Shown: in pieces, positions 1 through 44,306 of the stretch
Position numbering within the stretch: position 1 is the stretch's first letter
How the letters are laid out: each line of letters begins with the position of its first letter
From: a virus
Lineage: Duplodnaviria > Heunggongvirae > Uroviricota > Caudoviricetes
IMG/VR virus record: IMGVR_UViG_3300028666_000024
Span: 1-64,000 of that record
Reading direction: 5' to 3' (one strand)
DNA: 64,000 bases
Notes under the pieces: generated by a model
Databases searched by the model: none
What the model saw: the letters and a program-made list of their open reading frames with translations, nothing else
What the model was told of the DNA's origin: nothing
Program-made: the position numbers and the translations under genes

Positions 1-126
1 TCTTTCAAAGTTCTTTCAAAGTTCTTTCAAAGTTCTTTCAAAGTTCTTTCAAAGTTCTTTCAAAGTTCTTTCAAAGTTCTTTCAAAGTTCTTTCAAAGTT
101 CTTTCAAAGTTCTTTCAAAGTTCTTT
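1..126. repeat. Tandem repeat, 11-bp unit 'ttctttcaaag', ~11.5 copies
   Basis: Read directly; perfect copies from the window edge to ~126. Confidence 0.9.
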
Positions 127-241
127 CTTCTCCTTGATGAAAATGTATAATCCAAAACATATGCCGGGAATGAAGACACAAGCAATGAGAGAACCAGAGA
201 ACTTCAGAAATTGAATATCAAAACAATCAAGATGAATCATT

Positions 242-15738: not shown

Positions 15739-16557
15739 TTATTTACTCCTCCTATCATTTTTGATTGTCAGTTTGGAGGTCTCATAACTCTGGACATATC
15801 CACCAGCACCAGACACTGTATCGATTGTTAGTTTGGAGGTATCACGACTCTGGACAACTCCACCAGATAATGTATCGATTGTCACATTGGAGGTCTCATA
15901 CCTCCTGACATATCCACCAGACACTGTATCGATTGTCACATTGGAGGTATCATAACTCCGGACATCTCCACTAGACACTGTATTGATTGTCAGTTTGGAG
16001 GTATTATAACTCCTAACATCTCTACCAGACACTGTATCGATTGTCACTTTGGAGGTATTATAACTCCAGAGATCTCCACCAGACACTGTATCGATTGTCA
16101 CTTTGGAGGTATCATAACTCCCGACATATCCACCAGATATTGTATTGATTATCAGTTTGGAGGTATTATAACTCCGGACATCTCCACCAGATAATGTATC
16201 AATTGTCACATTACCAGATAAAATAATCAAATTCAGTTTGGTTAACTCAATTGGAATTTTTGTATCTTTTCGAATGATATGAGTTTTCGCCCATTCGTTT
16301 ATTTTATCTCGACAAGCAATTTCTGCTTCTTTGTTGTTAAACCATTCCGGCAGAAAATCCTGATCTGTTTTAAATATCCAATTCTCCATAGGAGTTCGAT
16401 AATCATTATCCTTTGGAAAAATTTCTATTCGAACAAAATCCGGTTTCTTTGTTTTATCGTTTAATTTATTTTCCGATATGATATCTTCATGACTATCTGA
16501 ATATTTGGAAAAGAAAACATCATTTTGAGTTACGATGAACGAGGCTGAGTTACACAT
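15739..16557 (-). CDS. paralog family member 2 (8 repeats)
   Basis: Same architecture as member 1. Confidence 0.8.
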   Translation of the reverse strand: MCNSASFIVTQNDVFFSKYSDSHEDIISENKLNDKTKKPDFVRIEIFPKDNDYRTPMENWIFKTDQDFLPEWFNNKEAEIACRDKINEWAKTHIIRKDTKIPIELTKLNLIILSGNVTIDTLSGGDVRSYNTSKLIINTISGGYVGSYDTSKVTIDTVSGGDLWSYNTSKVTIDTVSGRDVRSYNTSKLTINTVSSGDVRSYDTSNVTIDTVSGGYVRRYETSNVTIDTLSGGVVQSRDTSKLTIDTVSGAGGYVQSYETSKLTIKNDRRSK

Positions 16558-21038: not shown

Positions 21039-21959
21039 TTACTCCAACCTATTGTCATTTTTGATTGTCAGTTTGGAGGTATCACGACTCTGGACATCTC
21101 CACCAGATAATGTATCGATTGTTAGTTTGGAGCTATGATAACTCCTGACAACTCCACCAAACACTGTATCGATTGTCAGTTTGGAGGTATCACAACTCTG
21201 GACATATCCACTAGATAATGTATTGATTGTCATTTTGGAGGTCTCAAAACTCCAGACATCTCCACCAGACAATATATCAATTGTTAGTTTGGAGGAATGA
21301 TAACTCAGGACATCTCCACCAGACAATATATCAATTGTCAGTTTGGAGGTATGATGACTCAGGACACATCCACTATATAATGTATTGATTGTCACATTGG
21401 AGGTATCAAAACTCCGGACATTTCCACCAGATAATGTATTAATTGTCAGTTTGGAGGTCTCATAACTCAGGACATCTCCACCAGACATTTTATCGATTGT
21501 CACATTGGAGGTATCATAACTCCGGACATATCCACCAGACACTGTATTGATTGTCAGTTTGGAGGTATCATAACTCCGGACATATCCACCAGATAATGTA
21601 TCAATTGTCACATTACCAGATAAAATAATCAAATTCAATTTGGTGAACTCAGCCGGAATTTTTGTATCTTTTCGAATGATATGAGTTTTCGCCCATTCGT
21701 TCATTTTATCTTGACAGGCGATTTCTGCTTCTTTGATATTAAACCATTCCGGCAGAAAATTCTGATCTGTTTTAAATATCCAATTCTCCATAGGAGTTCG
21801 ATAATCAGTATCCTTTGGAGAAATTTCTATTCGAACAAAATCAGGTGTATCTGTTTTGTCATTCAATTTATTTTCCGATATGATATCTTCATGACTATCT
21901 GAATATTTGGAAAACAAAACATCATTTTGAGTTACGATGAAAGAGGCAGAGTTACACAT
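21039..21959 (-). CDS. paralog family member 3 (11 repeats)
   Basis: Same architecture; C-terminus is NDNRLE. Confidence 0.8.
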   Translation of the reverse strand: MCNSASFIVTQNDVLFSKYSDSHEDIISENKLNDKTDTPDFVRIEISPKDTDYRTPMENWIFKTDQNFLPEWFNIKEAEIACQDKMNEWAKTHIIRKDTKIPAEFTKLNLIILSGNVTIDTLSGGYVRSYDTSKLTINTVSGGYVRSYDTSNVTIDKMSGGDVLSYETSKLTINTLSGGNVRSFDTSNVTINTLYSGCVLSHHTSKLTIDILSGGDVLSYHSSKLTIDILSGGDVWSFETSKMTINTLSSGYVQSCDTSKLTIDTVFGGVVRSYHSSKLTIDTLSGGDVQSRDTSKLTIKNDNRLE

Positions 21960-27432: not shown

Positions 27433-27639
27433 TTATTCCCCTCCACAGGCATCATCCCAATCAGCCTGAAGTTCTCTATAAGTTTCTTCTGAATCAGAAC
27501 ATATATCATCATAACATGCCTGACAGATTCTTTCACCAACAAGAAAAATATTCAACTCTTCTCCCGGCAAAAGATTTACTTCAACACAACTATCACACTG
27601 AGAACATCTATATGACACTATAGATATATTATTTTCCAT
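27433..27639 (-). CDS. Cys-rich zinc-finger-like small protein
   Basis: CSQCDSC...CQAC; AAGGA RBS at the trimmed start. Confidence 0.45.
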   Translation of the reverse strand: MENNISIVSYRCSQCDSCVEVNLLPGEELNIFLVGERICQACYDDICSDSEETYRELQADWDDACGGE

Positions 27640-28048
27640 TTTTATTTCCTTTAACTTTGATAAATAAACTTCTTTTGTATTCAGATCTATGTTCTTCACA
27701 AAATTGTGGATATATAAAAACCCTTGGAAGAACTAAAATCTCAAACGTTTCGTTACATCCTTTAAGTTGACATGTCTGAATAATAACTTTAGGCTCTGAA
27801 AAGGAATGCTTTATTGTTTGATTAGGATTGTTATCAGTCTGTATCTTCCTCTTCAGATCATTCTTTTCTTTATCTATAACCTTTCTGTATACTGGTTTGC
27901 GGTGTTCATCACAAAATTTTCCCTTTGCTGTAGAATAAAATGTTTCTTCACAATCGGGGAATTGACAACTCTTTTTAAATTTTTTATAATGTGTTTTCTC
28001 TTCTGAATGTTTATTTGAAACTTTATTAAGACTAATAATTGTATTCAT
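27629..28048 (-). CDS. duplicated Cys/His zinc-binding motif protein (139 aa)
   Basis: CQFPDC..FCDEHR and CQLKGC..FCEEHR. Confidence 0.5.
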   Translation of the reverse strand: MNTIISLNKVSNKHSEEKTHYKKFKKSCQFPDCEETFYSTAKGKFCDEHRKPVYRKVIDKEKNDLKRKIQTDNNPNQTIKHSFSEPKVIIQTCQLKGCNETFEILVLPRVFIYPQFCEEHRSEYKRSLFIKVKGNKNGK

Positions 28049-28091
28049 TGATCTCCTGTTTAGCAGTCTGAAATTTAAAAATCTTTAAATC

Positions 28092-28334
28092 TTAATACAA
28101 TTCAATATTTTTACAATCTGTTTTAAAAATTTCTTTACAATTTTTTATTTTAAAACAAGTTTTACAAACTGATTCATCCCACTCTTTTCTAAACTGAGCG
28201 GCATTCTTTTGAACCCACTCCAACATATATTTATCTCCGGGATCTTCATGAATCCGCTCTCCCTCATAATACTTATCAAGTTCAATCTTATTCTTTTCAA
28301 CTTCATTAAAATTTCTAAACTCTCGTTCTGTCAT
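28092..28334 (-). CDS. hypothetical protein (~80 aa)
   Basis: GGAGG RBS at the trimmed start. Confidence 0.45.
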   Translation of the reverse strand: MTEREFRNFNEVEKNKIELDKYYEGERIHEDPGDKYMLEWVQKNAAQFRKEWDESVCKTCFKIKNCKEIFKTDCKNIELY

Positions 28335-28412
28335 GGCACTTATCCTCCACAACAACTATTTATGAAGTTTGTGTCAATTTATTAAATAATAGTTCTGGTA
28401 ATAGGATTTCTC

Positions 28413-28625
28413 CTAAACCATCACCTCCGGAACATAATTGTGTTTCTTATCCTTCTTGATATCATTCATCTTGATCCTCGACCATGTAACGGTATTTGCT
28501 GAAACATGACGACTCTTGTTGTGTTGCTTGCTAAGAGTTTGTCCCTTTATAATCTTCTTTGTTATTGAATGTCTCCTACCCTTGATATGTTTCTCTCTCC
28601 TTGCAACCTCTTGTAAATTTACCAC
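28413..28625 (-). CDS. small basic protein (70 aa)
   Basis: GTG start with a GAAGGAGG RBS; K/R/H-rich. Confidence 0.45.
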   Translation of the reverse strand: MVNLQEVARREKHIKGRRHSITKKIIKGQTLSKQHNKSRHVSANTVTWSRIKMNDIKKDKKHNYVPEVMV

Positions 28626-28669
28626 AACTCCTCCTTCGTAAGAATTTTTAAAGTGATTTGAAATTAATT

Positions 28670-28717
28670 TAAAATTGGTAGACTTTTTGAATTGAGATTA
28701 ACGTGACAGGTTATCGT
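28670..28717. repeat. Direct repeat, copy 1 (taaaattggtagactttttgaattgagattaacgtgacaggttatcgt)
   Basis: Copy 2 at 29081-29142 carries an internal 14-bp duplication; an inverted partial copy (aaaagtctacc) is at 29189-29199. Confidence 0.8.
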
Positions 28718-29028
28718 CCACCTCCTTTAATTAGTTTTCCACAAAATGGGCAAAACCTCATACCCTCAGTGTGTAGCAACTTTTCAAAAAGTCCATCGCA
28801 CGCGGTCCTATAAAAAGCAATATCCTTTACGGCAGTTAATTGCCACTCGCACACATCGACAGGAGCGAGGCGTGGACAACACTCCTGATTGTATTTGGCT
28901 GTTTTAGTATAATCAATGATGGTTTTGTTATCACTATTTCCGCACCGTAATTTTTTGCCTTGATGCTTATTTGCTATCCAATAGCACTGGTTTTTAAACT
29001 CCTCCCACTCCTCATTGACCCGAAGCAT
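28711..29028 (-). CDS. Cys-rich GC-rich protein (105 aa) flanked by ~47-bp direct repeats
   Basis: AAGGGG RBS; CPFCGK and several other Cys; GC higher than the surroundings. Confidence 0.5.
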   Translation of the reverse strand: MLRVNEEWEEFKNQCYWIANKHQGKKLRCGNSDNKTIIDYTKTAKYNQECCPRLAPVDVCEWQLTAVKDIAFYRTACDGLFEKLLHTEGMRFCPFCGKLIKGGGR

Positions 29029-29080
29029 CTTCTACCCCTTTCGCGAGTCGTTCAGCGGCAAGGCAGGCTGAACAACGATG

Positions 29081-29142
29081 AAAATTGGTAGACTTTTTGA
29101 ATTGAGATTAACGTGACATAATTAACGTGACAGGTTATCGTA
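29081..29142. repeat. Direct repeat, copy 2
   Basis: See copy 1. Confidence 0.8.
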
Positions 29143-29238
29143 GTTCACCTGCACAATGCTCCGTTGTGTTTCAATTCCAGTTACGTTTCTGTTTAAAAGT
29201 CTACCAAAAGATTTACTGTAAGTCTTTACTGTAAGTCT

Positions 29239-30081
29239 TTACTGCTTAACAGGAATCTGCAACATCATTCCACCACTAGAACCCTCAACCTGTGGTCGGG
29301 CACCATTCCACTTATCAATAGCTGCCCTCTGAATCTTGAGTTGTTCCCATTGAATAAGTTGTGGAGTAAGAGAAGAAGTAAGAATATTATTTGCTTTTGC
29401 TTCACCTTCTGCAATAGCAATCTTCTTCTGTGCCTCTGCCTGTGCCGTTATGATTTCATTCTGAACCTGTCCTGCCATTTGTGTAGCAGTAATCTTTGCG
29501 TTCAGAGCATTAACAACTTGCTCAGGAAGACGAAGAGCACCGATGAAACCGAACTGGACTATACTATCTCCGTATGTATTAATCTTATTGTTGATACGAA
29601 TAACTACAGAATCAAGTAGTTCTTCCTTCTTCGGCCCGTAAATTTCATCAACTGTATACTTTGAGGCAACATCCGAGAAAGCATCCCTTGCTACGTTATG
29701 CAGGAATCCATTTGTATACATAGTCAAATCATCACTTCGAAACTGCACATAGAAGGAAGGAATCTTTGACTTGATAAGTTGGTGACTGAGATTGATATCT
29801 GCATTAATCACCATACCTTCTTTGGAGTTGAAAGTAATATCCTCTCCTGATTCCTTTGTCCATACCGTTGTCTGAACAAAAGTTGGATATTCAACAATCT
29901 GTTTTGCAATTGGGTTGAACCAAATCCAACCTGTCTGCAAAGGAATCTGATCTGCTCCCCGATTGTCTCCGAGTTTGTTAATTACAATACCCTCATGTCC
30001 CGGCCCGATTGTGGTACAACCCGCGAAAAGAATTGCGGCGAACGAAAGAAGAACTGTAAGATTGATAAATCTCCGACTCAT
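29239..30081 (-). CDS. SPFH/band-7 (prohibitin/HflKC-like) lipoprotein
   Basis: Lipobox ILFAGC after a basic N-terminus; band-7 domain with a coiled-coil AQAEAQKKIAIAEGEAKA. Confidence 0.7.
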   Translation of the reverse strand: MSRRFINLTVLLSFAAILFAGCTTIGPGHEGIVINKLGDNRGADQIPLQTGWIWFNPIAKQIVEYPTFVQTTVWTKESGEDITFNSKEGMVINADINLSHQLIKSKIPSFYVQFRSDDLTMYTNGFLHNVARDAFSDVASKYTVDEIYGPKKEELLDSVVIRINNKINTYGDSIVQFGFIGALRLPEQVVNALNAKITATQMAGQVQNEIITAQAEAQKKIAIAEGEAKANNILTSSLTPQLIQWEQLKIQRAAIDKWNGARPQVEGSSGGMMLQIPVKQ

Positions 30082-34770: not shown

Positions 34771-35394
34771 TCAAGATACTCCGTTGATTAAATCCTCAAT
34801 AGAACACATACTGCTTATCTTTGTTTGAGCATATAACAATAGCAGTGTATTATTTAAAGATTTATCAACCATCTCTTCAGGATAGAAGGCAGGTTTGATA
34901 TAGGTCATGGTTCCTTTTTCTTTGTCAATATATACTGAGGGATCAAGGATTTTCCATAGACCGACAGGCATCTTCTTCATAACAAAAATTCTCAACTCTT
35001 TAGAATCATTACAAACGAAGATTGCAGCTTTTGCAGAGGCTTCCTTATACTTAACATGGATTGTATAGAGAGAATACTTGCTTTTGGTTTTTAATTCGAA
35101 GGCAATACTATAATCATCTTTGTCACGGTCTTTGCAATATTGCTGAACATAATCCAAAACATCTATCAAATTCATTTCATATTCTATTGTTTGTGAATAC
35201 CAAACACACATCAGTTCTTCATATATCCCTGCCTGTGATGGATCTCTTTCCAAACCATATTCCATGATAAGTCTAATCTGTTGAAAGATTTCTTCTTTGA
35301 ACTTTCCACCGGCCTGCACCAAATCTTTAATAGGATTTTCACTCTCATAATCCGGAAGGTCTGGTGCTTCATAACTATTTTCAAAATCAGACAT
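34771..35394 (-). CDS. hypothetical protein (207 aa)
   Basis: ORF. Confidence 0.5.
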   Translation of the reverse strand: MSDFENSYEAPDLPDYESENPIKDLVQAGGKFKEEIFQQIRLIMEYGLERDPSQAGIYEELMCVWYSQTIEYEMNLIDVLDYVQQYCKDRDKDDYSIAFELKTKSKYSLYTIHVKYKEASAKAAIFVCNDSKELRIFVMKKMPVGLWKILDPSVYIDKEKGTMTYIKPAFYPEEMVDKSLNNTLLLLYAQTKISSMCSIEDLINGVS

Positions 35395-35519
35395 TTGAAA
35401 GTTCCTTTGTTAAATTCTTTAAGAATTTTTATAAATTGAAAAAACTTTCCAAAGTTTTAAATTCATTTTGTAAATCCTTTAAAAGAAATGTCGGGAACGA
35501 TGCTTTATACCAACATCAA

Positions 35520-35598
35520 TGGCAGTGCCGATGGGATTTCAACCCACGATAACCACAGTGACAGTGTGGTGCATTAAAGCAGACTATGCTACGGCACT
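35520..35598 (-). tRNA. tRNA-Asp (GTC), CCA encoded
   Basis: Hand-folded: acceptor AGTGCCG/CGGCACT, anticodon stem CCACA/TGTGG, loop CTGTCAC, T-arm GTGGG-TTGAAAT-CCCAT. Confidence 0.7.
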
Positions 35599-35612
35599 AA
35601 ATTTAAAATTGG

Positions 35613-35686
35613 CTGGCAAGGCAGGGATCGAACCTGCGACAACCAAATTAACAGTTTGGTGTTCATACCAACTGAACTACTTGCCA
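35613..35686 (-). tRNA. tRNA-Asn (GTT)
   Basis: Acceptor TGGCAAG/CTTGCCA, D GTTC/GAAC, anticodon loop CTGTTAA, T-arm GCAGG-TTCGATC-CCTGC. Confidence 0.7.
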
Positions 35687-35689
35687 ATA

Positions 35690-35764
35690 TCTAACTGACA
35701 GGATTTGAACCTGTGTTGACTTGCTCCCAAAGCAAGTGCCTCAACCAAACTAGGCTACAGTTAG
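35690..35764 (-). tRNA. tRNA-Pro (TGG)
   Basis: Acceptor CTAACTG/CAGTTAG, D GCCT/AGGC, anticodon loop TTTGGGA, T-arm ACAGG-TTCAAAT-CCTGT. Confidence 0.7.
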
Positions 35765-35770
35765 TTTATA

Positions 35771-35844
35771 TAGCGGGAGTCAGATTCGAACTGACGATAG
35801 GGAGCTTATGAGGCTCCTGTCTTAGACCACTAGACAACCCCGCA
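35771..35844 (-). tRNA. tRNA-Met or Ile2 (CAT) with a 1:72 mismatch
   Basis: Anticodon loop CTCATAA, D GTCT/AGAC, T-arm GTCAG-TTCGAAT-CTGAC; position 1 T and 72 T are unpaired. Confidence 0.6.
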
Positions 35845-35857
35845 GTCAATATCAAAA

Positions 35858-35934
35858 TGGAGCAGCAAGTGGGATTTCAACCCACGTAATTTCGCTTGGA
35901 AGGCGAACACATGAAGCATCTATGTTATTGCTGC
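35858..35934 (-). tRNA. tRNA-Gly (TCC), CCA encoded
   Basis: Acceptor GCAGCAA/TTGCTGC, anticodon loop CTTCCAA, T-arm GTGGG-TTGAAAT-CCCAC. Confidence 0.65.
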
Positions 35935-36021
35935 AATTTCAAATTTATTTCAAATCCCTTTTAAAATAATTCATGGGAATATCAAAGTCAAGTCTTTTAT
36001 TCTCATTCAATAGTTTTTCTT

Positions 36022-36612
36022 TTAAGGCTTTCGAGGAGTCTTCGGCCTTGTTGGTTCAGTCCTTCGGACAATATTTTTATTTTGTTTTGGAACTTCAACA
36101 GGTTTTTTAGGATTAATTGTTATAGTCGGTGCATTATCCTGTGCTAAATAATTCTTTGCTATAGTATATAGATGTTTGCACAAAAATAGTTTTCCCATAG
36201 GATTTGTGATTTTTGTCCATTGCCTGTTATGGGTTTTAATCTCTGCACTTCTTCTGGCAGCATCCTGAGCATACTTTGGTTCAAGATTGAAGGTAGCTAA
36301 CCCCTTCTTCACGAACGGAGCGTAGAGGCGTGTGTAGAAGTCTAAACAGTCACAATAGACCTGATAGATTTTTAAATTTTTAGGATCATATAAAACATAT
36401 CCTTTGTGTGGTTGATCCACATCAGGTTCAGTATGTTCTATGGATCTGGTAGAAAATTCAATCTTATCCAGTTTCATTTTCTTACCTTCAATTTCAAAGA
36501 TCTGATTTCTAACTTGTCGAATTTTCATACCTCTAATAGTTCTGCCGGGATCTGTGTTCCTTAAAAGACTATCCCGCGCAACCCATTCAACTAAAAATTC
36601 AACAAAATTCAT
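36022..36612 (-). CDS. SWIM zinc-finger protein (196 aa)
   Basis: CxCxnCxH: YCDCLDF....LCKHLY. Confidence 0.5.
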   Translation of the reverse strand: MNFVEFLVEWVARDSLLRNTDPGRTIRGMKIRQVRNQIFEIEGKKMKLDKIEFSTRSIEHTEPDVDQPHKGYVLYDPKNLKIYQVYCDCLDFYTRLYAPFVKKGLATFNLEPKYAQDAARRSAEIKTHNRQWTKITNPMGKLFLCKHLYTIAKNYLAQDNAPTITINPKKPVEVPKQNKNIVRRTEPTRPKTPRKP

Positions 36613-36772
36613 TTAAAACTCCGATTCAAAAGGCTTCAAAAGTATTTATAATGCTTGCAGAATTCTTCTGAAATAAGTTTTTAAATACTCCTTGCATATT
36701 CAATCGGCAGGAATTATATTAACAATGTTTCAAAACAATATTTAAAATAATTCTCAATCTTGAAAATAGTTC

Positions 36773-36802
36773 TTGACTTCGATATTTTCAATGAAGTATT
36801 TT
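36773..36802 (+). promoter_or_regulatory. sigma70-like promoter TTGACT-N18-TATTTT
   Basis: Upstream of the 36848 gene. Confidence 0.4.
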
Positions 36803-36847
36803 AAAACTGTTTCAAACACTTTCAAACAATCTTTGTGAGGAGGATCT

Positions 36848-37465
36848 ATGAAATACCGTTGCACTTTTATTGAAGAATGTTTGGGGACTCTTGCCAACGA
36901 TCCCAAAATAACAGAACTTTATATTGCGTCTCTGGCACCGGATGCAATAAGTCGGGAAGAGGAAGTTGCTGCTATTGGTGTTGATGCAGTTGTTAAAAAA
37001 GCAATGACTGTTTTTCCAAGAGAGAATGGAAGAATTTTCATATGGGATTATCAAATCAAGGGGATGTTCAAGGGTGCATGTGGAGCACTGCGCAAGAGTG
37101 ATGGTGATTATCTCTCAAAGGAAGTTACCGCTCATAAACAACTTATCAACCAACTTATTTTTCCCAAACCTCGAAAAATCTTTATTAATATTCCCGAAGG
37201 GTTGAGTATCGGAAACTGCCAACGGCCTCTTCGTGGACAAACTGCACAAGGAGAAACAATCTCTCTTGCAAATTCAGAAACTGTTCCTGCCGGTTCTTTT
37301 TTTGAATTCACAGTTAAAAGTTATACAACCGAATATGAATCCAAGAAAAAGAAACTCAATGTCAAAACTCTGGTTGAGGAGTGGTTGTCCTACGTTGAAG
37401 ATAGTGGGTTCCTTCAATGGCGGAATGCAGGAAAGGGAAGATTTGTTTGGGAAGAAATAAAGTAG
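36848..37465 (+). CDS. hypothetical protein (205 aa)
   Basis: ORF with a GAGGAGGA RBS. Confidence 0.55.
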   Translation: MKYRCTFIEECLGTLANDPKITELYIASLAPDAISREEEVAAIGVDAVVKKAMTVFPRENGRIFIWDYQIKGMFKGACGALRKSDGDYLSKEVTAHKQLINQLIFPKPRKIFINIPEGLSIGNCQRPLRGQTAQGETISLANSETVPAGSFFEFTVKSYTTEYESKKKKLNVKTLVEEWLSYVEDSGFLQWRNAGKGRFVWEEIK

Positions 37466-37492
37466 TACAACCGGCACGATGTTTGTGCATAC

Positions 37493-37814
37493 TGTGATGG
37501 TTAAGTGATGTCAAGTGAAGTGTTGGTGAGGTAGAGGGTAGTGAGGTGATGGTAAGGTAACGTGAAGTATAGTGGAGTATAGTGATGGTTAAGTGCAGTA
37601 ATGTTTAGTCTAGTAATGGTAAAGTGCAGTAATGTTTAGTTTAGTAATGGTATGGTGAAGTTATGTTTAGTTTAGTAATGGTAAGGTGACGTGATGTTTA
37701 GTAGTGGTAAAGTAATGTACTGTGGTGTTTAGTTTAGTAATGGTAAGGTGACGTGATGTTTAGTAGTGGTAAAGTAATGTACTGTGGTGTTTAGTAATGG
37801 TGTGGTGAAGTGTT
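37493..37814 (+). repeat. Cytosine-depleted G/T/A-only tandem array, ~31-bp period (gtttagtttagtaatggtaaggtgacgtgat and variants), ~10 units
   Basis: Only ~9 C in ~320 nt of the plus strand; units repeated, the last two pairs near-identical. Confidence 0.85.
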
Positions 37815-37869
37815 CAAACACTTTTCAAAGGAGTTTATGATGCATATCCTGTAGTTTAACAATCTAACT

Positions 37870-37952
37870 GGCCGGATGGTGGAAAGGTAGACACAAGGGA
37901 CTTAAAATCCCTCGGAAGCAATTCTGTGAGAGTTCAAATCTCTCTTCGGCCA
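37870..37952 (+). tRNA. tRNA-Leu (TAA), type II
   Basis: Acceptor GGCCGGA/TTCGGCC, D GTG/CAC with GG loop, anticodon stem AGGGA/TCCCT, loop CTTAAAA, long variable arm, T-arm GAGAG-TTCAAAT-CTCTC. Confidence 0.7.
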
Positions 37953-38083
37953 CTTTCAAACTTCTTTCAAAGAAAACTTTAAAATGCCTGAAATTCTTTT
38001 AAAAATAAATTGTAAAGAACAAACATGCAGTCTGTGTGATTGGTTTGATTATACTTGTTTAAAATCACAAAAGGAGATTTCAA

Positions 38084-38419
38084 ATGAAAATTCTAATTCT
38101 TGAAGACAGTTTGGAAAGAGTTAAAAAGTTCCGAGAAAAATTCATCGGTCATGAAGTTGTGGTAACTGAGTTTTCAAAAGAATGTATCAAACTTCTTTCT
38201 GAAAATACATATGATGCAATCTTTCTTGACCATGATCTTGGTGGAGCAATAATGGTTTCATCTGGAGAAAATACAGGATATGAGGTTGCTGAATGGTTAT
38301 CTAAAAATCCTGTATATCAACCAAGAACAATCATTATCCATTCGTTTAATCCTTCGGGTGCTAAAAATATGAAGGCAGTATTATCTAACGCAATAATCAA
38401 TCCGGGAGCATGGTTGTGA
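38084..38419 (+). CDS. stand-alone CheY-like receiver (REC)-domain protein (111 aa)
   Basis: ILILEDS ... AIFLDHDLGG ... IIIHSFN pattern matches the REC fold acidic pocket; AAGGAG RBS. Confidence 0.45.
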   Translation: MKILILEDSLERVKKFREKFIGHEVVVTEFSKECIKLLSENTYDAIFLDHDLGGAIMVSSGENTGYEVAEWLSKNPVYQPRTIIIHSFNPSGAKNMKAVLSNAIINPGAWL

Positions 38420-38907
38420 TATTTTGTAATGATAAAATCAAATTCCGCTCAGAAGAACTTGCTCTGAACTATGCGGAAATGATGAAGAGAAAAGGAATCT
38501 TCATTCATCCATATCATTGTGCTATTCATAACTGTTGGCATCTCGGTCACGCTCAAAAAGAATTTAAAAGTATTGATGAAAGAATTCATAATATTTTTAA
38601 ACTTATAAATAACGACTTAACGGAAAATCGTTCCTTTATAAGAATGAAAAATTTACTTAATAATATTTTCAAGAGAATTGATTTAAAAGAAATTCCAAGA
38701 TTTGCAATCGATATTAATAAAAACTTTACAATTAAATGGAATAAGTCTTTTTATTTCAATGCTTATGTTCCCGGTAATCCAAATCAAAAAATCAATTTCA
38801 GTTATGGAAAGTTAAACGAATCTCATCATAAATATGGAGCGGGAGCATCTGATAGACAAGTAGCGGAAATTCTTATTAACAATTTGAAAAGGGATGGTGT
38901 TATATGA
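38410..38907 (+). CDS. hypothetical protein (165 aa)
   Basis: ORF, overlaps its neighbours by 8-10 nt. Confidence 0.5.
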   Translation: MVVIFCNDKIKFRSEELALNYAEMMKRKGIFIHPYHCAIHNCWHLGHAQKEFKSIDERIHNIFKLINNDLTENRSFIRMKNLLNNIFKRIDLKEIPRFAIDINKNFTIKWNKSFYFNAYVPGNPNQKINFSYGKLNESHHKYGAGASDRQVAEILINNLKRDGVI

Positions 38908-39149
38908 CAATTTTAAAATCTGACATTGAAAAGAAATTAACTGAGAAAGAGGAACAGGAATTCAAAGAGTTAGAAAAGAGTATTGATGAATTTTTGTATG
39001 AAAATTATGTTGGTAATTTTTTATTGTACTATCCCGATAAACCTATCAACTTAAAACTTCAACGTAAAATAGTTGATAAATATAGCGCCGCTGGATGGAA
39101 AGTAAGGTTTGGTACTCATATGGATGGAATTTTTGTAATATTTTCTTAA
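38904..39149 (+). CDS. hypothetical protein (81 aa)
   Basis: ORF. Confidence 0.5.
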   Translation: MTILKSDIEKKLTEKEEQEFKELEKSIDEFLYENYVGNFLLYYPDKPINLKLQRKIVDKYSAAGWKVRFGTHMDGIFVIFS

Positions 39150-39164
39150 CAAGGAGATTTCAAA

Positions 39165-40340
39165 ATGATTGTTAAATATGAACAAGGTTTACAAAGAATT
39201 CCTATTAAAAGATGGTTGGAAGATGTTGAAGATTCTGCATGGCAACAAGCTTTAAATCTTTCAAACCTTCCCTTTACCTTCAGTCACATTGCCCTCATGC
39301 CCGACTGTCACAGCGGATATGGAATGCCTATTGGTGGAGTTATGGCAACCAAAGGAGTTATTGTTCCTAATGCTGTAGGTGTAGATGTTGGTTGTGGTAT
39401 GTGTGCTGTCAAGACTCCTTGGAAAATAGAAGAGATTGACAAAGTAGTTCTCAAAAAGATTATGGGCATCATTAGAAAAGTTATCCCTGTTGGTTTTAAT
39501 AAACATAAAGAACCACAAAACAAAAAATATATGCCTGACCCCTTCTGTTCTCTTGTTGTAGAAAAAGAATATGATAACGCTCTATGTAGTCTCGGAACGC
39601 TCGGTGGGGGCAATCACTTCCTAGAAATTCAGAAAGATACTGAAGGTTTTGTTTGGATAATGATTCACTCAGGTAGTCGTAATCTCGGAAAGAAAGTTGC
39701 TGAATATTATAACAAACTTGCTATAATTCTCAATGAAAAATATCATTCTAGTGTTCCTACAAACTTTCAACTTGCTTTCCTTCCAATGGATACTAATATT
39801 GGAATGGACTACGAGATGGATATGAATTTTTGTGTTGAGTTTGCATTGAAGAATCGTATGCTCATGATAGAAAGAATAGCAGAAACCTTTGACAAAGTTA
39901 TGAGTTCAAATAAAATTGATTTGTCTCAGGTGATTAACATTGCACACAACTATGCCCGGATGGAACACCACTTCGGGGAAAATGTTATGGTTCATCGAAA
40001 AGGAGCAACATCTGCCCGTAAGGATGAAATTGGAATCATTCCCGGTTCTCAAGGTTCTAAATCTTACATTGTAAAAGGTTTAGGAAATGTTCAAAGTTTT
40101 ACAAGTTGTTCTCATGGTGCCGGAAGAAAAATGTCAAGAAAATCCGCTTCCGAAAATCTTAACCTCGAAGAAGAAATTAAAAAACTTGATGACCAAGGAA
40201 TCATTCATAGTATCAGACATAAAAATGATCTTGATGAAGCAGATGGAGCATATAAAGATATCAAAACCGTTATGGAAAATCAATCTGACCTTGTTGAAAT
40301 TGTAACAGAACTATCACCATTAGCAGTTGTGAAAGGATAA
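39165..40340 (+). CDS. rtcB: RtcB RNA ligase (3'-phosphate/5'-hydroxyl)
   Basis: Metal-site His/Cys pattern; C-terminal SCSHGAGR (GMP-His site); 391 aa. Confidence 0.85.
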   Translation: MIVKYEQGLQRIPIKRWLEDVEDSAWQQALNLSNLPFTFSHIALMPDCHSGYGMPIGGVMATKGVIVPNAVGVDVGCGMCAVKTPWKIEEIDKVVLKKIMGIIRKVIPVGFNKHKEPQNKKYMPDPFCSLVVEKEYDNALCSLGTLGGGNHFLEIQKDTEGFVWIMIHSGSRNLGKKVAEYYNKLAIILNEKYHSSVPTNFQLAFLPMDTNIGMDYEMDMNFCVEFALKNRMLMIERIAETFDKVMSSNKIDLSQVINIAHNYARMEHHFGENVMVHRKGATSARKDEIGIIPGSQGSKSYIVKGLGNVQSFTSCSHGAGRKMSRKSASENLNLEEEIKKLDDQGIIHSIRHKNDLDEADGAYKDIKTVMENQSDLVEIVTELSPLAVVKG

Positions 40341-40344
40341 CTCA

Positions 40345-41109
40345 ATGTGTAAATCTGCCTCTTTCATCGTAACTCAGAATGATGTTTTATTTTCCAAATA
40401 TTCTGATAGTCATGAGGATATCATATCGGAAAATAAATTGAATGACGAAACAAATACACCTGATTTTGTTCGAATAGAAATTTTTCCAAAGGATAATGAT
40501 TATCGAACTCCTATGGAGAATTGGATATTTAAAACAGATCAGGATTTTCTGCCGGAATGGTTTAATATCAAAGAAGCAGAAATCGCCTGTCGAGATAAAA
40601 TAAACGAATGGGCGAAAACTCATATCATTCGAAAAGATACAAGAATTCCGACTGAGTTCACCAAACTAAATTTGATTATTTTATCCGGTAATGTGAAAAT
40701 CGATACAGTGTCTGGTGGAGATGTCTGGAGTTATAATAAATCCAAACTGACAATCAATACATTATCTGGTGGATATGTCCTGAGTTATGATACCTCCAAT
40801 GTGACAATCGATACAGTGTCTGGTGGAGATGTTAGGAGTTGTGATACCTCCAAACTGACAATCAATACAGTGTCTAGTGGAGATGTCCGGAGTTATGATA
40901 CCTCCAAACTGACAATCAATACATTATCTAGTGGAGTTGTCCAGAGTCGTGATACCTCCAAACTAACAATCAATACAGTGTCTGGTGCTGGTGGATATGT
41001 CTGGAGTTATAATACCTCCAAACTAACAATCGATACATTATCTGGTGGATATGTTATGAGTCGTGATACCTCCAAACTAACAATCAAAAATGATAAGAGG
41101 AGTAAATAA
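40345..41109 (+). CDS. paralog family member 4 (7 repeats; starts MCKSASF)
   Basis: Conserved AAAGGATAACTCA-ATG upstream. Confidence 0.8.
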   Translation: MCKSASFIVTQNDVLFSKYSDSHEDIISENKLNDETNTPDFVRIEIFPKDNDYRTPMENWIFKTDQDFLPEWFNIKEAEIACRDKINEWAKTHIIRKDTRIPTEFTKLNLIILSGNVKIDTVSGGDVWSYNKSKLTINTLSGGYVLSYDTSNVTIDTVSGGDVRSCDTSKLTINTVSSGDVRSYDTSKLTINTLSSGVVQSRDTSKLTINTVSGAGGYVWSYNTSKLTIDTLSGGYVMSRDTSKLTIKNDKRSK

Positions 41110-42679: not shown

Positions 42680-43501
42680 ATGTGTAACTCAGCCTCGTTC
42701 ATCGTAACTCAAAATGATGTTTTCTTTTCCAAATATTCCGATAGTCATGAAGATATCATATCGGAAAATAAATTGAATGACAAAACAGATACACCTGATT
42801 TTGTTCGAATAGAAATCTCTCCAAAGGATAATGATTATCGAACTCCTATAGAGAGTTGGATATTTAAAACAGATCAGGATTTTCTGCCGGAATGGTTTAA
42901 TATCCAAGAAGCAGAAATCGCCTGTCGAGATAAAATAAACGAATGGGCGAAAACTCATATCATTCGAAAAGATACAAAAATTCCGGCTGAGTTCACCAAA
43001 TTGAATTTGATTATTTTATCCGGTAATGTGACAATCGATACATTATCTGATGGATGTGTCCAGAGTTATGAGACCACCAAACTGACAATCAATACATTAT
43101 CTGGTGGAGATGTCCGGAGTTATGATACCACCAAACTGACAATCAATACAGTGTCTAGTGGAGATGTCCGGAGTTATAATACCTCCAAAGTGACAATCAA
43201 TACAGTGTCTAGTGGATATGTCCGGAGTTATGATACCTCCAAAGTGACAATCAATACATTATCTGGTGGAGATGTCCGGAGTCATCATACCTCCAATGTG
43301 ACAATCGATAAAATGTCTGGTGGAGATGTCTGGAGTTATAATAAATCCAAAGTGACAATCGATAAAATGTCTGGTGGAGATGTCTGGAGTTATAATAAAT
43401 CCAAAGTGACAATCGATACAGTGTTTGGTGGAGATGTCCAGAGTCGTGATACCTCCAAACTGACAATCAAAAATGATAAAAGGATAACTCAAAATGTGTA
43501 A
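42680..43501 (+). CDS. paralog family member 5 (8 repeats); C-terminus reads through into the next copy's RBS region
   Basis: Ends KNDKRITQNV, overlapping the start of member 6. Confidence 0.8.
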   Translation: MCNSASFIVTQNDVFFSKYSDSHEDIISENKLNDKTDTPDFVRIEISPKDNDYRTPIESWIFKTDQDFLPEWFNIQEAEIACRDKINEWAKTHIIRKDTKIPAEFTKLNLIILSGNVTIDTLSDGCVQSYETTKLTINTLSGGDVRSYDTTKLTINTVSSGDVRSYNTSKVTINTVSSGYVRSYDTSKVTINTLSGGDVRSHHTSNVTIDKMSGGDVWSYNKSKVTIDKMSGGDVWSYNKSKVTIDTVFGGDVQSRDTSKLTIKNDKRITQNV

Positions 43502-44306
43502 CTCAGCCTCTTTCATCGTAACTCAAAATGATGTTTTGTTTTCCAAATATTCAGATAGTCATGAAGATATCATATCGGAAAATAAATTGAATGACAAAAC
43601 AAAGAAACCGGATTTTGTTCGAATAGAAATTTCTCCAAAGGATAATGATTATCGAACTCCTATGGAGAATTGGATATTTAAAACAGATCAGGATTTTCTG
43701 CCGGAATGGTTTAATATCCAAGAAGCAGAAATCGCCTGTCGAGATAAAATAAACGAATGGGCGAAAACTCATATCATTCGAAAAGATACAAGAATTCCGA
43801 CTGAGTTCACCAAACTAAATTTGATTATTTTATCCGGTAATGTGACAATCGATACAGTGTCTGCTGGATATGTCCGGAGTTATAATACCTCCAAAATAAC
43901 AATCAATACATTATCTGGTGGATATGTCCTGAGTTATGATACCTCCAATGTGACAATCGATACAGTGTCTGGTGGAGATGTTAGGAGTTGTGATACCTCC
44001 AATGTGACAATCGATACAGTGTCTGGTGGAGATGTTAGGAGTTGTGATACCTCCAAACTGACAATCAATACAGTGTCTGGTGGAGATGTTAGGAGTTGTG
44101 ATACCTCCAAACTGACAATCGATAAAATGTCTGGTGGATATGTCTGGAGTTTTGATACCTCCAAAGTGACAATCGATACAGTGTCTGGTGGATATGTCCG
44201 GAGTTATCATACATCCAATGTGACAATCGATACAGTGTCTGGTGGAGATGTTTGGAGTTTAAATACCTCCAAACTGACAATCAAAAATGATAAGAGGAGT
44301 AAATAA
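43494..44306 (+). CDS. paralog family member 6 (8 repeats)
   Basis: Tandem with member 5. Confidence 0.8.
   Translation: MCNSASFIVTQNDVLFSKYSDSHEDIISENKLNDKTKKPDFVRIEISPKDNDYRTPMENWIFKTDQDFLPEWFNIQEAEIACRDKINEWAKTHIIRKDTRIPTEFTKLNLIILSGNVTIDTVSAGYVRSYNTSKITINTLSGGYVLSYDTSNVTIDTVSGGDVRSCDTSNVTIDTVSGGDVRSCDTSKLTINTVSGGDVRSCDTSKLTIDKMSGGYVWSFDTSKVTIDTVSGGYVRSYHTSNVTIDTVSGGDVWSLNTSKLTIKNDKRSK

What the first reader, a model, noticed from the sequence alone, without database searches (positions are those of the whole stretch)
37493..37814. Cytosine-free G/T-rich 31-bp tandem array beside tRNA-Leu
About 320 bp of the plus strand contain only ~9 C (under 3%, against roughly 16-17% expected). The stretch is built from ~10 tandem units of ~31 bp (gtttagtttagtaatggtaaggtgacgtgat and variants); the last two unit pairs are nearly identical, a sign of recent duplication. 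It lies between a protein gene and tRNA-Leu, on the same strand as the flanking plus-strand genes. The extreme strand asymmetry (G/U/A-only RNA if transcribed, C/A-only complement) is not explained by coding or by ordinary AT bias. Candidate roles: iteron or centromere-like protein-binding array (ori or par site), packaging signal, or a structured or sponge RNA carrying many GGU/GGA motifs.
Basis: seen in the sequence. Interest (0 to 1): 0.7.

Follow-up and report, generated by a model that had tools for sequence, protein, structure and literature searches.

The report
Phage VIPR guide-RNA repeat array
The cytosine-poor G/T-rich repeat is most likely the guide-RNA array of a VIPR system, a recently described phage-encoded relative of CRISPR, and the "protein gene" just upstream encodes its Cas7-like RNA-binding protein.

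Summary
Window 37493-37814 has 9 C in 322 nt, the lowest count in the 64 kb. It is tandemly repeated with periods 31 and 62.

The deeper signal is a GT dinucleotide every 5 nt, with one 6-nt step (GTNNNG) about every sixth repeat. That gives 26/31/36-nt units and a mean period of 5.19 nt.

A search of IMG/VR with that GT skeleton alone found 31 loci. 17 of the 23 non-microsatellite loci carry a homolog of the window's upstream 205-aa gene beside the array.

The reverse test agrees. 26 of 27 loci found through the protein have a G-anchored 5-nt-periodic tract abutting the gene.

The predicted structure of the protein is a Cas7/Csm3-like RAMP. There is no CRISPR array or other cas gene nearby.

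This matches VIPR, described in 2026 bioRxiv preprints from the Doudna lab. In VIPR, a ~20 kDa Vipr RAMP polymerises, one protomer per pentanucleotide repeat, on a vrRNA. The variable bases guide binding to the DNA of competing phages. The preprint lists YNNNG repeats, as found here (UNNNG), as a variant.

Iteron, centromere, packaging and structured-RNA readings are not supported. The adjacent tRNA-Leu/RtcB genes look incidental. Cytosine loss is a lineage extreme, not the defining feature.

Verdict: a new member of a recently described kind. Expression, targets and the decoding rule are untested.

The parts
36625..36748 (+). Two sigma-70-like promoter matches (36625-36652 TTCAAA-16-TATAAT; 36719-36748 TTAACA-18-TAAAAT). 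They lie in the divergent intergenic region upstream of the vipr gene and are candidate start points of a vipr + array transcript.
   Evidence: Consensus scan only. 12 sites were found in the region against 8.2 expected, so this is weak evidence.
36848..37465 (+). vipr gene: a 205-aa stand-alone Cas7-like RAMP protein (RRM core, long beta-hairpin thumb at about residues 122-146, C-terminal G-loop GFLQWRNAGKGRF).
   Evidence: AF2 model pLDDT 85, pTM 0.78. The Foldseek PDB top 50 are all subunits of type VII and type III CRISPR effector complexes, led by the type VII complexes (9j9e, 8yhe, 8yhd; E about 1e-6, TM 0.54-0.58) and Csm complexes. BFVD hit A0A8S5R426 'Cas system-associated RAMP superfamily protein', 48% identity, TM 0.89. 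G-loop match to Csm4 and to type VII Cas7. 2052 homologs, no Pfam or PHROG family. Homologs sit next to GT-periodic arrays in 17 independent IMG/VR loci.
37494..37551 (+). Degenerate 5' part of the repeat tract. GT spacing is still mostly 5 nt, but the units are irregular.
   Evidence: rows GTGATG / GTTAA GTGAT GTCAA GTGAA GTGTTG / GTGAG ... GTGATG.
37552..37811 (+). Regular vrRNA-like repeat tract. Nine units of 4-7 pentamers (GUNNN), each closed by a hexamer GU(A/G)(A/G)UG, plus a final partial unit. It includes a recent 62/57-nt duplication (37681-37742 and 37743-37799).
   Evidence: The near-identical contig L028 lacks exactly 62 nt here.
37807..37828 (+). Weak 7-bp hairpin (AAGUGUU-CAAA-AACACUU) followed by UUUC at the end of the array. 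It is a possible 3' end or weak terminator.
   Evidence: -5.4 kcal/mol centroid; not better than shuffles, z = -0.42. It was not called by the terminator scan. Speculative.
37813..37841 (+). Sigma-70-like promoter match (TTCAAA-17-TATGAT) between the array and tRNA-Leu. It suggests that the tRNA/RtcB genes form a separate transcription unit.
   Evidence: Consensus scan only.
37870..37953 (+). tRNA-Leu(UAA). This is a neighbour, probably not part of the module. If it is co-transcribed, RNase P cleavage would define the 3' end of the array transcript.
   Evidence: ARAGORN and Rfam tRNA at 56.6 bits. tRNAs are absent near most other arrays.

Best explanation
The region, together with the gene just upstream, is a VIPR (Viral Interference Programmable Repeat) locus. 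The 205-aa gene at 36848-37465 encodes a Vipr protein, a minimal stand-alone Cas7-like RAMP. The G/T-rich tract at 37494-37811 encodes its vrRNA array.

Inferred mechanism, by homology with the SUSP1 and P. fulva systems described in bioRxiv 10.64898/2026.04.26.720920 and 10.64898/2026.04.26.720927:
1. The tract is transcribed on the + strand, most simply from the vipr promoter.
2. Vipr protomers polymerise along the RNA, one protomer per 5-nt repeat. They clamp the invariant G-U of each repeat with the G-loop and thumb and expose the variable bases.
3. The variable bases of successive repeats pair discontinuously with double-stranded DNA of a competing phage, satellite or prophage. The filament then silences transcription there.

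This locus uses the variant repeat U-N-N-N-G, the 'YNNNG' class mentioned in the preprint's methods, rather than YNNGG.

The near absence of C follows from three things: two of every five bases are fixed as G and U, the genome is AT-rich, and this lineage avoids C 3-fold at the variable positions. A plausible reason is that C would pair with the many scaffold G residues and fold the RNA.

Shown here: the periodic anatomy, the RAMP fold and the conserved gene-array linkage. Inferred: transcription, filament formation, DNA targeting and the biological role.
For: 1. Anatomy. GT recurs at spacings 5,5,5,5,5,6 over about 320 nt. The GT columns are invariant while the three bases between them vary.

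2. DNA-first test. The skeleton pattern (GTNNN)x5-GTNNNN-(GTNNN)x5-GT has 24 specified bases, so the chance expectation is about 0. It found 31 IMG/VR loci. 23 of them are not simple microsatellites, and they hold arrays of 100 to over 1000 nt with a 5:6 step ratio of about 4-5:1. 17 of these encode a homolog of the window's 205-aa protein, usually immediately upstream on the same strand (phmmer E 1.6e-55 to 1e-5; profile E down to 2e-86). The other 6 are second arrays on a contig that has a vipr locus, or are truncated loci.

3. Protein-first test. 26 of 27 IMG/VR loci found through the protein (about 50% identity) have a 5.0-5.35-nt G-periodic tract abutting the gene, and in 25 of these none further off in about 10 kb (L026 also has tracts about 3 kb downstream). 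The anchor dinucleotide differs by clade: GC or GA there, GT here.

4. Fold. The AF2 model has pLDDT 85. All 50 top PDB matches are subunits of type III and type VII CRISPR effector complexes, mostly the ~200-aa Cas7/Csm3 backbone, and the profile matches the RAMP G-loop.

5. Link to the characterised system. I located the SUSP1 VIPR locus in KT454805.2: vipr 28474-29061, whose residues match the 11 of the 12 functional residues named in the structure preprint (T175 reads V), with GGYNN arrays in both flanks. hhalign aligns the window family end to end with it (E 0.0048). A broader profile scores it at E 4.9e-5 in a targeted test.

6. G-loop. W178 and R179 of SUSP1 hold G2 and Y3. They align with W191 and R192 in the window protein. 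D177 reads G1 and aligns with Q190. This fits NGU here in place of GGY.

7. Context. The genome is a phage (baseplate, tape measure). No cas gene or CRISPR array lies nearby.

8. RNA structure. The RNA is predicted to be unstructured, as expected for a scaffold threaded through a protein filament.

9. The published description of VIPR matches point by point.
Against: - There is no expression data for this phage.
- Sequence similarity to the experimentally studied Vipr is marginal: about 10 bits, and an hhalign probability of 7%.
- No vap accessory gene could be recognised in the window or as a conserved neighbour in the GT-type loci.
- No conserved structured 3' tail was found, unlike type II vrRNAs.
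- The units between hexamers hold only 4-7 repeats, against 9-16 in SUSP1. Several units share the same last repeats (GUUUA GUUUA GUAAUG), so the number of distinct 'words' is small, and part of the array may be decayed or redundant.
- No target was found. A gapped k-mer search of 0.7 Mb of local sequence gave no signal under any pairing rule.
- I could not see the preprint's supplementary figures. The VIPR type, and whether the hexamer punctuation corresponds to their 'staggered arrays', remain unassigned.
Confidence: 0.86

Rival explanations
1. A Vipr-RNA filament with a job other than silencing rival phages. It could regulate the phage's own genes. It could act as a decoy that ties up host Cas7-containing CRISPR complexes or another RNA-directed defence. 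Or it could be linked to the adjacent tRNA-Leu/cREC/RtcB RNA-repair genes.
For: The protein-RNA pairing is well supported, but the downstream function here is only inferred from other VIPR types. The variable words are few and partly duplicated. No target was found. The locus sits beside an RNA-repair operon.
Against: The preprint reports no self-targeting hits and shows DNA targeting of competing elements for several types. tRNA or RtcB neighbours are absent from most other arrays. The local self-search gave no signal.
Confidence: 0.06
2. A decaying or neutral minisatellite. On this view a pentanucleotide microsatellite expanded and was re-duplicated as 31- and 62-nt blocks in a genome prone to tandem repeats, and it has no present function.
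For: The window is full of other tandem arrays, many of them perfect. Unit lengths differ by 5-nt slippage steps. The last 62 nt are a recent duplication, and one strain lacks 62 nt.
Against: GT columns are invariant while neighbouring columns vary (P = 9e-4). The same skeleton lies next to homologous genes in dozens of unrelated phages whose sequences are otherwise unalignable. The sixth base of the 6-nt step is G in 89% of 245 cases across 19 arrays.
Confidence: 0.04
3. A double-stranded DNA protein-binding array (iterons of an origin, a partition centromere, a packaging site, or an upstream activating array for the tRNA/RtcB promoter).
For: 31 bp is three helical turns, and 5.19 bp is half a turn. 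The array lies about 1 kb from a strand-switch and a local cumulative GC-skew minimum and directly upstream of a promoter-like site.
Against: Unit lengths of 26, 31 and 36 bp would flip the binding face by half a turn. The GC-skew change simply follows gene orientation. The array is always on the same strand as a gene for an RNA-binding RAMP protein. No second copy of the motif exists in the 64 kb. No replication, partition or terminase gene is adjacent in the window.
Confidence: 0.03
4. [quoted passage not shown]
For: Phages are known to carry and expand ToxI-like tandem repeats of about 36 nt (papers listed). The period here is 31 nt.
Against: Units vary in length by 5-nt modules and are only 66-86% alike. 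Type III antitoxin repeats must each fold into a defined pseudoknot. No fold signal was found, and there is no ToxN-like gene. This reading explains neither the 5-nt GT skeleton nor the RAMP gene linkage.
Confidence: 0.01

Closest known systems
VIPR systems (Vipr protein + vrRNA), type II of Escherichia phage SUSP1 and a Pseudomonas fulva prophage (bioRxiv 10.64898/2026.04.26.720920 and 10.64898/2026.04.26.720927, 2026)
   Same: Phage-encoded, stand-alone ~20 kDa RAMP with a G-loop and thumb. Long intergenic tracts flank the gene on the same strand and are made of tandem pentanucleotide repeats, with invariant G-anchored positions alternating with hypervariable ones. There is no CRISPR array and no other cas gene. 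The W and R residues of the G-loop that hold G2 and Y3 are conserved.
   Different: The repeat consensus is UNNNG (three variable bases, first G not conserved) rather than YNNGG. The residue aligned with D177 is Q. The array is one continuous tract punctuated by GUNNNG hexamers every 4-7 repeats, rather than discrete ~100-nt vrRNAs each ending in a structured tail or pseudoknot. No vap gene was recognised. The pairing rule and the targets are unknown.
Class 1 CRISPR backbone: Cas7 (Csm3, Cmr4, type VII Cas7) filament on crRNA
   Same: Same protein fold (top structural matches). One subunit binds per short RNA segment, and a thumb breaks the guide into short words.
   Different: CRISPR Cas7 binds any sequence with a 6-nt register, needs a repeat-derived handle plus Cas5/Cas6 and a large subunit, and its spacers are contiguous. 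Here the register is 5 nt, an invariant GU is read in every segment, the protein stands alone, and there are no repeat-spacer units.
TRAP and its (G/U)AG-repeat RNA in the Bacillus trp leader
   Same: An unstructured, C-poor RNA with a short motif repeated every 5-6 nt, each copy bound by one subunit of an oligomer.
   Different: TRAP is a 75-aa ring protein, unrelated in fold, that binds 11 triplets to control attenuation. This is an analogy of geometry only.
ToxI and pseudo-ToxI tandem RNA repeats (type III toxin-antitoxin systems)
   Same: A phage-borne tandem repeat RNA of about 30-36 nt per unit that works by binding a protein. Copy number changes by unit duplication.
   Different: ToxI units are near-identical, fold into pseudoknots, and are cut out by the toxin they inhibit. 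The units here are heterogeneous, unstructured and built from pentamers.

Membership tests
VIPR system | Small stand-alone RAMP protein (single RRM core, G-loop, thumb) | tested here: met
   AF2 pLDDT 85. All 50 top PDB matches are subunits of type III and type VII CRISPR effector complexes, mostly the ~200-aa Cas7/Csm3 backbone. G-loop profile match. Long beta-hairpin at residues 122-146 and G-loop at 187-198 in the model.
VIPR system | Homology to an experimentally characterised Vipr (SUSP1) | tested here: inconclusive
   hhalign gives an end-to-end alignment with E 0.0048 but a probability of only 7%. A broader profile gives E 4.9e-5 and 10 bits in a two-sequence test. tblastn does not reach SUSP1. 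The preprint itself says that RAMPs share little sequence similarity.
VIPR system | Gene flanked by tandem pentanucleotide repeats in which conserved G-anchored positions alternate with hypervariable ones | tested here: met
   The consensus is UNNNG, not the canonical YNNGG. The preprint's methods list YNNNG as an alternative vrRNA repeat.
VIPR system | Gene-array linkage conserved across homologs | tested here: met
   26 of 27 protein-defined loci. 17 of 23 pattern-defined loci.
VIPR system | Not in a CRISPR context (no repeat-spacer array, no other cas genes); mostly viral | tested here: met
   Only one vipr-like ORF is present in the window.
VIPR system | Accessory vap gene next to vipr ('typically' present) | tested here: not met
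   No conserved neighbour is shared with other GT-type loci. The only other recurrent neighbour is the terminase large subunit. The divergent 196-aa gene and the downstream ORFs have no informative hits. The preprint says 'typically', so this feature is not strictly defining.
VIPR system | Conserved structured 3' tail capping each vrRNA (described for type II) | tested here: not met
   Only a weak hairpin lies at the array end, and it is not better than shuffles. There is no internal constant structured element. The preprint reports other array architectures (staggered, ribozyme-interspersed), so this feature is type-specific.
VIPR system | vrRNA expressed and bound by Vipr; variable bases match DNA targets under a fixed skip rule | not testable with these tools
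   There is no transcript or binding data. The local gapped k-mer target search was uninformative.
CRISPR array | Identical repeats of 25-40 nt separated by unique spacers of similar length | tested here: not met
   Units abut without spacers and are built from pentamers.
Iteron or centromere DNA array | Repeats in constant helical phase, next to a cognate initiator or partition gene | tested here: not met
   Unit lengths are 26, 31 and 36 bp. The neighbour is a RAMP protein. No Rep or Par gene was found nearby.
Type III antitoxin RNA | Near-identical units that each fold into a pseudoknot, followed by a terminator and a toxin gene | tested here: not met
   66-86% identity between units, variable unit length, fold z-score +0.96. 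No ToxN-like gene.
Rfam RNA families | Match to a curated covariance model | tested here: not met
   Only tRNAs were found in 35000-40000 at E <= 1, apart from chance-level matches elsewhere.

The most novel reading that the evidence does not exclude
The UNNNG arrays may use a recognition code different from the published GGY/NN '1-nt skip' rule. Three features suggest this:
- There are three variable bases per repeat, so units of only 4-7 repeats could still specify 12-21 nt.
- A G-specific extra nucleotide (GUNNNG) occurs about once per six protomers. Six protomers is one turn of the published binary filament. The extra G could act as a register or as a processing mark that divides a continuous array into many short guides.
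- The D177-to-Q change in the G-loop could be what frees the first position to vary.

Kilobase-long arrays of this kind in large phages (up to about 2.7 kb in L058) would then be dense guide libraries.
Probability: 0.3. Interest if true: 0.7.

Novelty: new member of a known kind. Interest (0 to 1): 0.5.

Why it matters
VIPR was first reported in preprints in April-June 2026. It is proposed there as an ancestor of CRISPR effector complexes and as a very small programmable DNA-binding platform.

This locus adds a member from a poorly sampled large phage, about 169 kb with no close relatives in the databases searched. It uses the little-described UNNNG repeat.

The work also gives a purely DNA-level signature: GT every 5 nt, with a G-terminated 6-nt step about every sixth repeat. 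That signature recovers such arrays from raw sequence, including kilobase-scale ones.

It also offers a testable residue-to-base correspondence (G-loop D to Q, GGY to NGU).

For the scan itself, the result shows that an extreme base-composition anomaly can point to a guide-RNA array.

Tried and rejected
Searches that found nothing:
- Megablast of 35000-41000 against GenBank phages: no match.
- Exact 20-mer of the unit in IMG/VR: none.
- Rfam: only tRNAs.
- Homologs of the downstream 165-aa ORF: none beyond itself, so it is an orphan.
- Other copies of the unit in the window: only chance matches of 12 nt or fewer.
- afdb50 fold search: the library was unavailable.
- Supplementary tables of the preprint: only the methods PDF was held, so the VIPR type could not be assigned.

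Ideas tested and dropped:
- RtcB-linked RNA element. 11 RtcB loci from IMG/VR had no comparable array. Their low-C stretches are purine-rich coding sequence.
- Structured RNA. Fold z-scores are +0.96 on the + strand and +2.47 on the - strand.
- Other low-C intergenic stretches of the window. They show no GT periodicity.
- Replication origin from GC skew. The skew follows gene orientation.
- The C-free tract in L022. It is a coding KDKE repeat.
- vap search by clustering neighbours. The only recurrent neighbour is the terminase large subunit.

Ideas considered on reasoning alone, with no supporting evidence found:
- A Shine-Dalgarno 'sponge' or tandem mini-ORFs.
- An R-loop or G-quadruplex element.
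- A Rho-loading site on the antisense transcript.
- Dense T4-type primase sites.
- Telomere-like repeats.

All of these were made unnecessary by the gene-array linkage.

Target prediction: gapped k-mer matching of the variable bases was run under 12 rule and word-length combinations against 0.7 Mb of local sequence. It showed no excess over shuffled controls. Residual hits came from simple repeats and unmasked arrays.

Full report
**1. The observation**

The stretch 37493-37814 of the + strand has 117 T, 110 G, 86 A and 9 C. No other 322-nt window of the 64 kb comes close (mean 58 C, sd 12; nothing else at or below 22). Intergenic regions of this genome otherwise carry 10-27% C.

Tandem Repeats Finder reports periods of 31, 62 and 93 nt. 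The repeat finder lists seven in-register copies spaced 31, 31, 31, 31, 31, 26.

No ORF of 40 aa or more crosses the stretch on either strand. tRNA-Leu(UAA) follows at 37870-37953. The description is therefore correct.

**2.

The units are not all 31 nt. They are 26, 31 or 36 nt and differ by whole 5-nt modules.

Beneath the 31-nt period lies a GT dinucleotide every 5 nt:
- 69 GT are present, and 45 of the 68 spacings are exactly 5. In 2000 shuffles the mean was 3.7 and the maximum 10.
- Eight more spacings are 6.
- Fourier peaks lie at 5.19 nt.

From 37546 to 37701 the spacing reads 6,5,5,5,5,5 five times over, even though those units are only about 70-85% alike. In four registered units, all 11 variable columns fall outside the 12 GT columns (P = 9e-4).

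The tract is thus (GTNNN)n with a hexamer, always GT(A/G)(A/G)TG here, closing each group of 4-7 pentamers.

**3. Surroundings**

Genes run leftward up to 36612 and rightward from 36848. The cumulative GC skew turns at the same place and simply follows gene orientation.

The rightward block contains, in order:
- a 205-aa ORF (36848-37465) with no Pfam or PHROG hit;
- the array;
- a sigma-70-like promoter match (37813-37841);
- tRNA-Leu;
- a cREC receiver-domain protein, two small ORFs and RtcB RNA ligase.

The genome is a large tailed phage (baseplate wedge, tape measure, NAMPT). Its own contig is 169 kb.

Only near-identical copies exist elsewhere. ENA contig L028 is identical over the aligned 650-nt stretch (the end of vipr to the start of the cREC gene) except that it lacks exactly 62 nt of the array. 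Two Logan contigs (L029, L030) flank this region: L029 breaks inside the array and L030 begins inside tRNA-Leu.

**4. Early dead ends**

- There was no GenBank phage match, no Rfam family, and no second copy of the unit in the window.
- Neither strand folds better than shuffled sequence (z = +0.96 and +2.47).
- RtcB loci of other phages have no such array.

**5. The turning point: a DNA-first search**

I searched IMG/VR with the bare skeleton (GTNNN)x5-GTNNNN-(GTNNN)x5-GT. It has 24 specified bases, so essentially no chance hits are expected. 31 loci came back.

About eight are simple microsatellites. The other 23 are complex:
- the three bases between the GTs differ from repeat to repeat;
- the arrays run from about 100 nt to 1 kb, and in clusters to 2.7 kb or more;
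- the ratio of 5-nt to 6-nt steps is about 4-5:1 everywhere;
- several arrays can occur in one genome, and many contigs are over 100 kb.

Across 19 arrays, the sixth base of the 6-nt step is G in 89% of 245 cases and is never C.

In these other arrays C is not rare at the variable positions. The median ratio to background is 0.76. The window and L072 are the extremes at 0.31. The conserved feature is therefore the GT skeleton, not cytosine loss.

**6. A conserved gene-array module**

The ORF just upstream of these arrays, on the same strand, is a homolog of the window's 205-aa protein in locus after locus. phmmer E-values run from 1.6e-55 to 1e-5. With a profile, 17 of the 23 loci hold a homolog. 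The remaining 6 are second arrays on contigs that have a vipr locus, or are short or truncated loci.

The reverse test used 27 IMG/VR loci that I had fetched earlier through the protein alone (about 50% identity, mostly 38-kb phages of higher GC). In 26 of them a tract with strong 5.0-5.35-nt periodicity of G abuts the gene. In 25 of these it is the only such tract in about 10 kb (L026 also has tracts about 3 kb downstream).

There the anchor is GC or GA rather than GT, with the same grammar, including hexamers ending in G. Gene and array are thus a conserved module whose RNA 'alphabet' shifts with the protein clade.

**7. The protein**

An AlphaFold model built on 53 homologs (pLDDT 85, pTM 0.78) matches subunits of CRISPR effector complexes in all 50 top PDB hits. 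These are the type VII complexes (E about 1e-6, TM 0.54-0.58) and type III Csm and Cmr complexes.

A profile search of PDB sequences picks up the RAMP glycine-rich loop of Csm4 and of type VII Cas7. BFVD holds a 48%-identical viral protein annotated as a RAMP.

The window has no CRISPR array, no other cas gene, and only this one RAMP ORF.

**8. Comparison with what is known**

A literature search found two 2026 bioRxiv preprints from the Doudna laboratory on VIPR systems. VIPR is described as follows:
- It is mostly phage-encoded.
- It comprises a ~20 kDa ancestral RAMP (Vipr) and vrRNAs made of 9-16 tandem pentanucleotide repeats, YNNGG.
- One Vipr protomer binds each repeat, six per helical turn in the binary complex, and clamps GGY.
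- The NN bases pair with double-stranded DNA, skipping every third target base.
- The complex silences competing phages, satellites and prophages.
- Seven types are described. Array architectures include 'staggered' arrays of overlapping vrRNAs.
- The methods mention alternative repeats NNNGG, YNNNG and NNNNG.

The window's UNNNG repeat is a YNNNG repeat.

I then located the SUSP1 locus in KT454805.2:
- vipr lies at 28474-29061. The 11 of the 12 functional residues named in the structure preprint match this ORF (the twelfth, T175, reads V).
- vap lies at 28031-28471.
- GGYNN arrays occupy both flanking intergenic regions.

Sequence similarity between the window family and SUSP1 Vipr is weak but collinear. 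hhalign gives an end-to-end alignment with E 0.0048. A broader profile gives E 4.9e-5 in a targeted test.

In the G-loop, W178 and R179 of SUSP1 hold G2 and Y3, and they align with W191 and R192 of the window protein. D177 reads G1 and aligns with Q190, which is nearly invariant in this family. This fits the loss of the first G from the repeat. It is an inference, not a demonstration.

**9. Most likely mechanism**

The array is probably transcribed rightward, most simply with vipr. No terminator is predicted between them, and the promoter matches lie upstream of vipr. Vipr would coat the RNA one protomer per pentamer and hold each GU. The exposed variable bases would then direct the filament to foreign DNA.

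This is inferred by homology. Transcription, binding, the targets and the pairing rule for three-base words are all untested here.

The low C content has three sources:
- 40% of positions are fixed as G or U.
- The genome is AT-rich.
- This lineage avoids C 3-fold at the variable positions.

The third point is plausibly explained by a need to keep a G-rich scaffold RNA unfolded, which agrees with the fold results. This too is inference.

**10. What does not fit neatly**

- No vap gene could be recognised.
- There is no structured tail, only a weak hairpin and U-run at 37807-37828.
- Units hold just 4-7 repeats, and several share the same last repeats, so the set of distinct words is small.
- My local search for targets under 12 rule and word-length combinations was uninformative.
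- I could not view the preprint's supplementary figures. The VIPR type is unassigned, and I cannot say whether the hexamer punctuation equals their staggered arrays.

**11. Rivals**

- A DNA iteron, centromere or packaging array is disfavoured. The unit lengths change by 5 bp, the partner has an RNA-binding fold, and no replication or partition gene is nearby.
- A neutral minisatellite is disfavoured. The GT columns are invariant, and the skeleton recurs beside homologous genes in unrelated phages.
- A type III antitoxin mimic does not fit the heterogeneous, unstructured units.
- A Vipr-RNA filament with a different job (self-regulation or a decoy) cannot be excluded.

**12. Verdict**

It is best filed as a new member of the recently described VIPR kind, of the UNNNG (YNNNG) repeat variant. 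The tRNA-Leu/RtcB neighbourhood is probably incidental.

Interest is moderate. The system is already described, but it is very new, and this variant's decoding rule and punctuation remain open and testable.

Noticed in passing
window 37870-40340: tRNA-Leu(UAA) is followed by a cREC receiver-domain protein (38084-38419), a 165-aa ORF with no homolog in 5.8 billion proteins (38410-38907), an 81-aa ORF, and RtcB RNA ligase (39165-40340). This looks like a phage RNA-repair or tRNA-rescue operon with its own promoter-like site.
   Followed up: partly
window 35520-35934 (- strand): A cluster of five tRNA genes (Asp, Asn, Pro, Met, Gly) lies just left of the divergent switch region.
   Followed up: no
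window 1-127, 1976-2025, 2575-2642, also 36810-36828 and 37960-37975: Perfect intergenic tandem arrays of 10-12 nt units are built around TTTCAAA / CTTTCAAAG (for example TCTTTCAAAGT x11.5). The same motif sits just upstream of several start codons and around the tRNA-Leu gene. It could be a phage promoter or operator motif, or simply a slippage-prone sequence.
   Followed up: partly
window 12569-12952, 15763-16209, 21063-21610, 40694-41087, 43028-43470, 43842-44282: The same 54-nt (18-aa) coding repeat, in 7-10 copies, occurs in at least six different genes on both strands. This is a paralogous family of repeat proteins, with one weak DUF2807/adhesin-like hit at 40345-41109.
   Followed up: no
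L028 5255 vs window 37694-37755: The ENA contig from another sample is identical over the aligned 650-nt stretch (the end of vipr to the start of the cREC gene) but lacks exactly one 62-nt double unit of the array. Of the Logan contigs of a third sample, L029 breaks inside the array and L030 begins inside tRNA-Leu. This is either real copy-number variation or assembly collapse.
   Followed up: partly
L058 3682-6366; L068 1963-4865; L070 3147-5590; L060 2-3870; L065 4152-5137: Some large IMG/VR phages carry GT-periodic arrays spread over 1 to nearly 4 kb of otherwise noncoding DNA, and several separate arrays per genome. These are far longer than the ~100-nt vrRNAs described for SUSP1.
   Followed up: partly
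L001-L027 (e.g. L006 5603-5717, L018 5534-5669, L023 4691-4811, L027 5660-5735): In relatives of the protein, the anchor dinucleotide of the pentamer repeat is GC (L001-L018, L025) or GA (L019-L024, L027) instead of GT. The array can lie upstream of the gene (L020-L024). The anchor appears to co-vary with the protein clade.
   Followed up: partly
L047 3329-5200, L054 3381-5351, L055 2719-5661, L065 5177-6646: In four GT-type loci the vipr/array module sits next to the terminase large subunit gene. In L055 the terminase carries an intein with a LAGLIDADG domain.
   Followed up: partly
L073 (Escherichia phage SUSP1, KT454805.2) 27500-29511: In the SUSP1 arrays, the last repeat before each constant tail is a 6-nt step, GGTATG or GGTGTG, followed by GGT. 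This resembles the GTAATG|GT punctuation of the window array.
   Followed up: no
window 37829-37856: A strong Shine-Dalgarno sequence (AAAGGAG) is followed by a five-codon mini-ORF (ATG ATG CAT ATC CTG TAG). It overlaps the promoter-like site just before tRNA-Leu and may be chance.
   Followed up: no
L060 7938-8298: A tmRNA gene lies about 4 kb from the vipr/array locus in a 117-kb viral contig.
   Followed up: no
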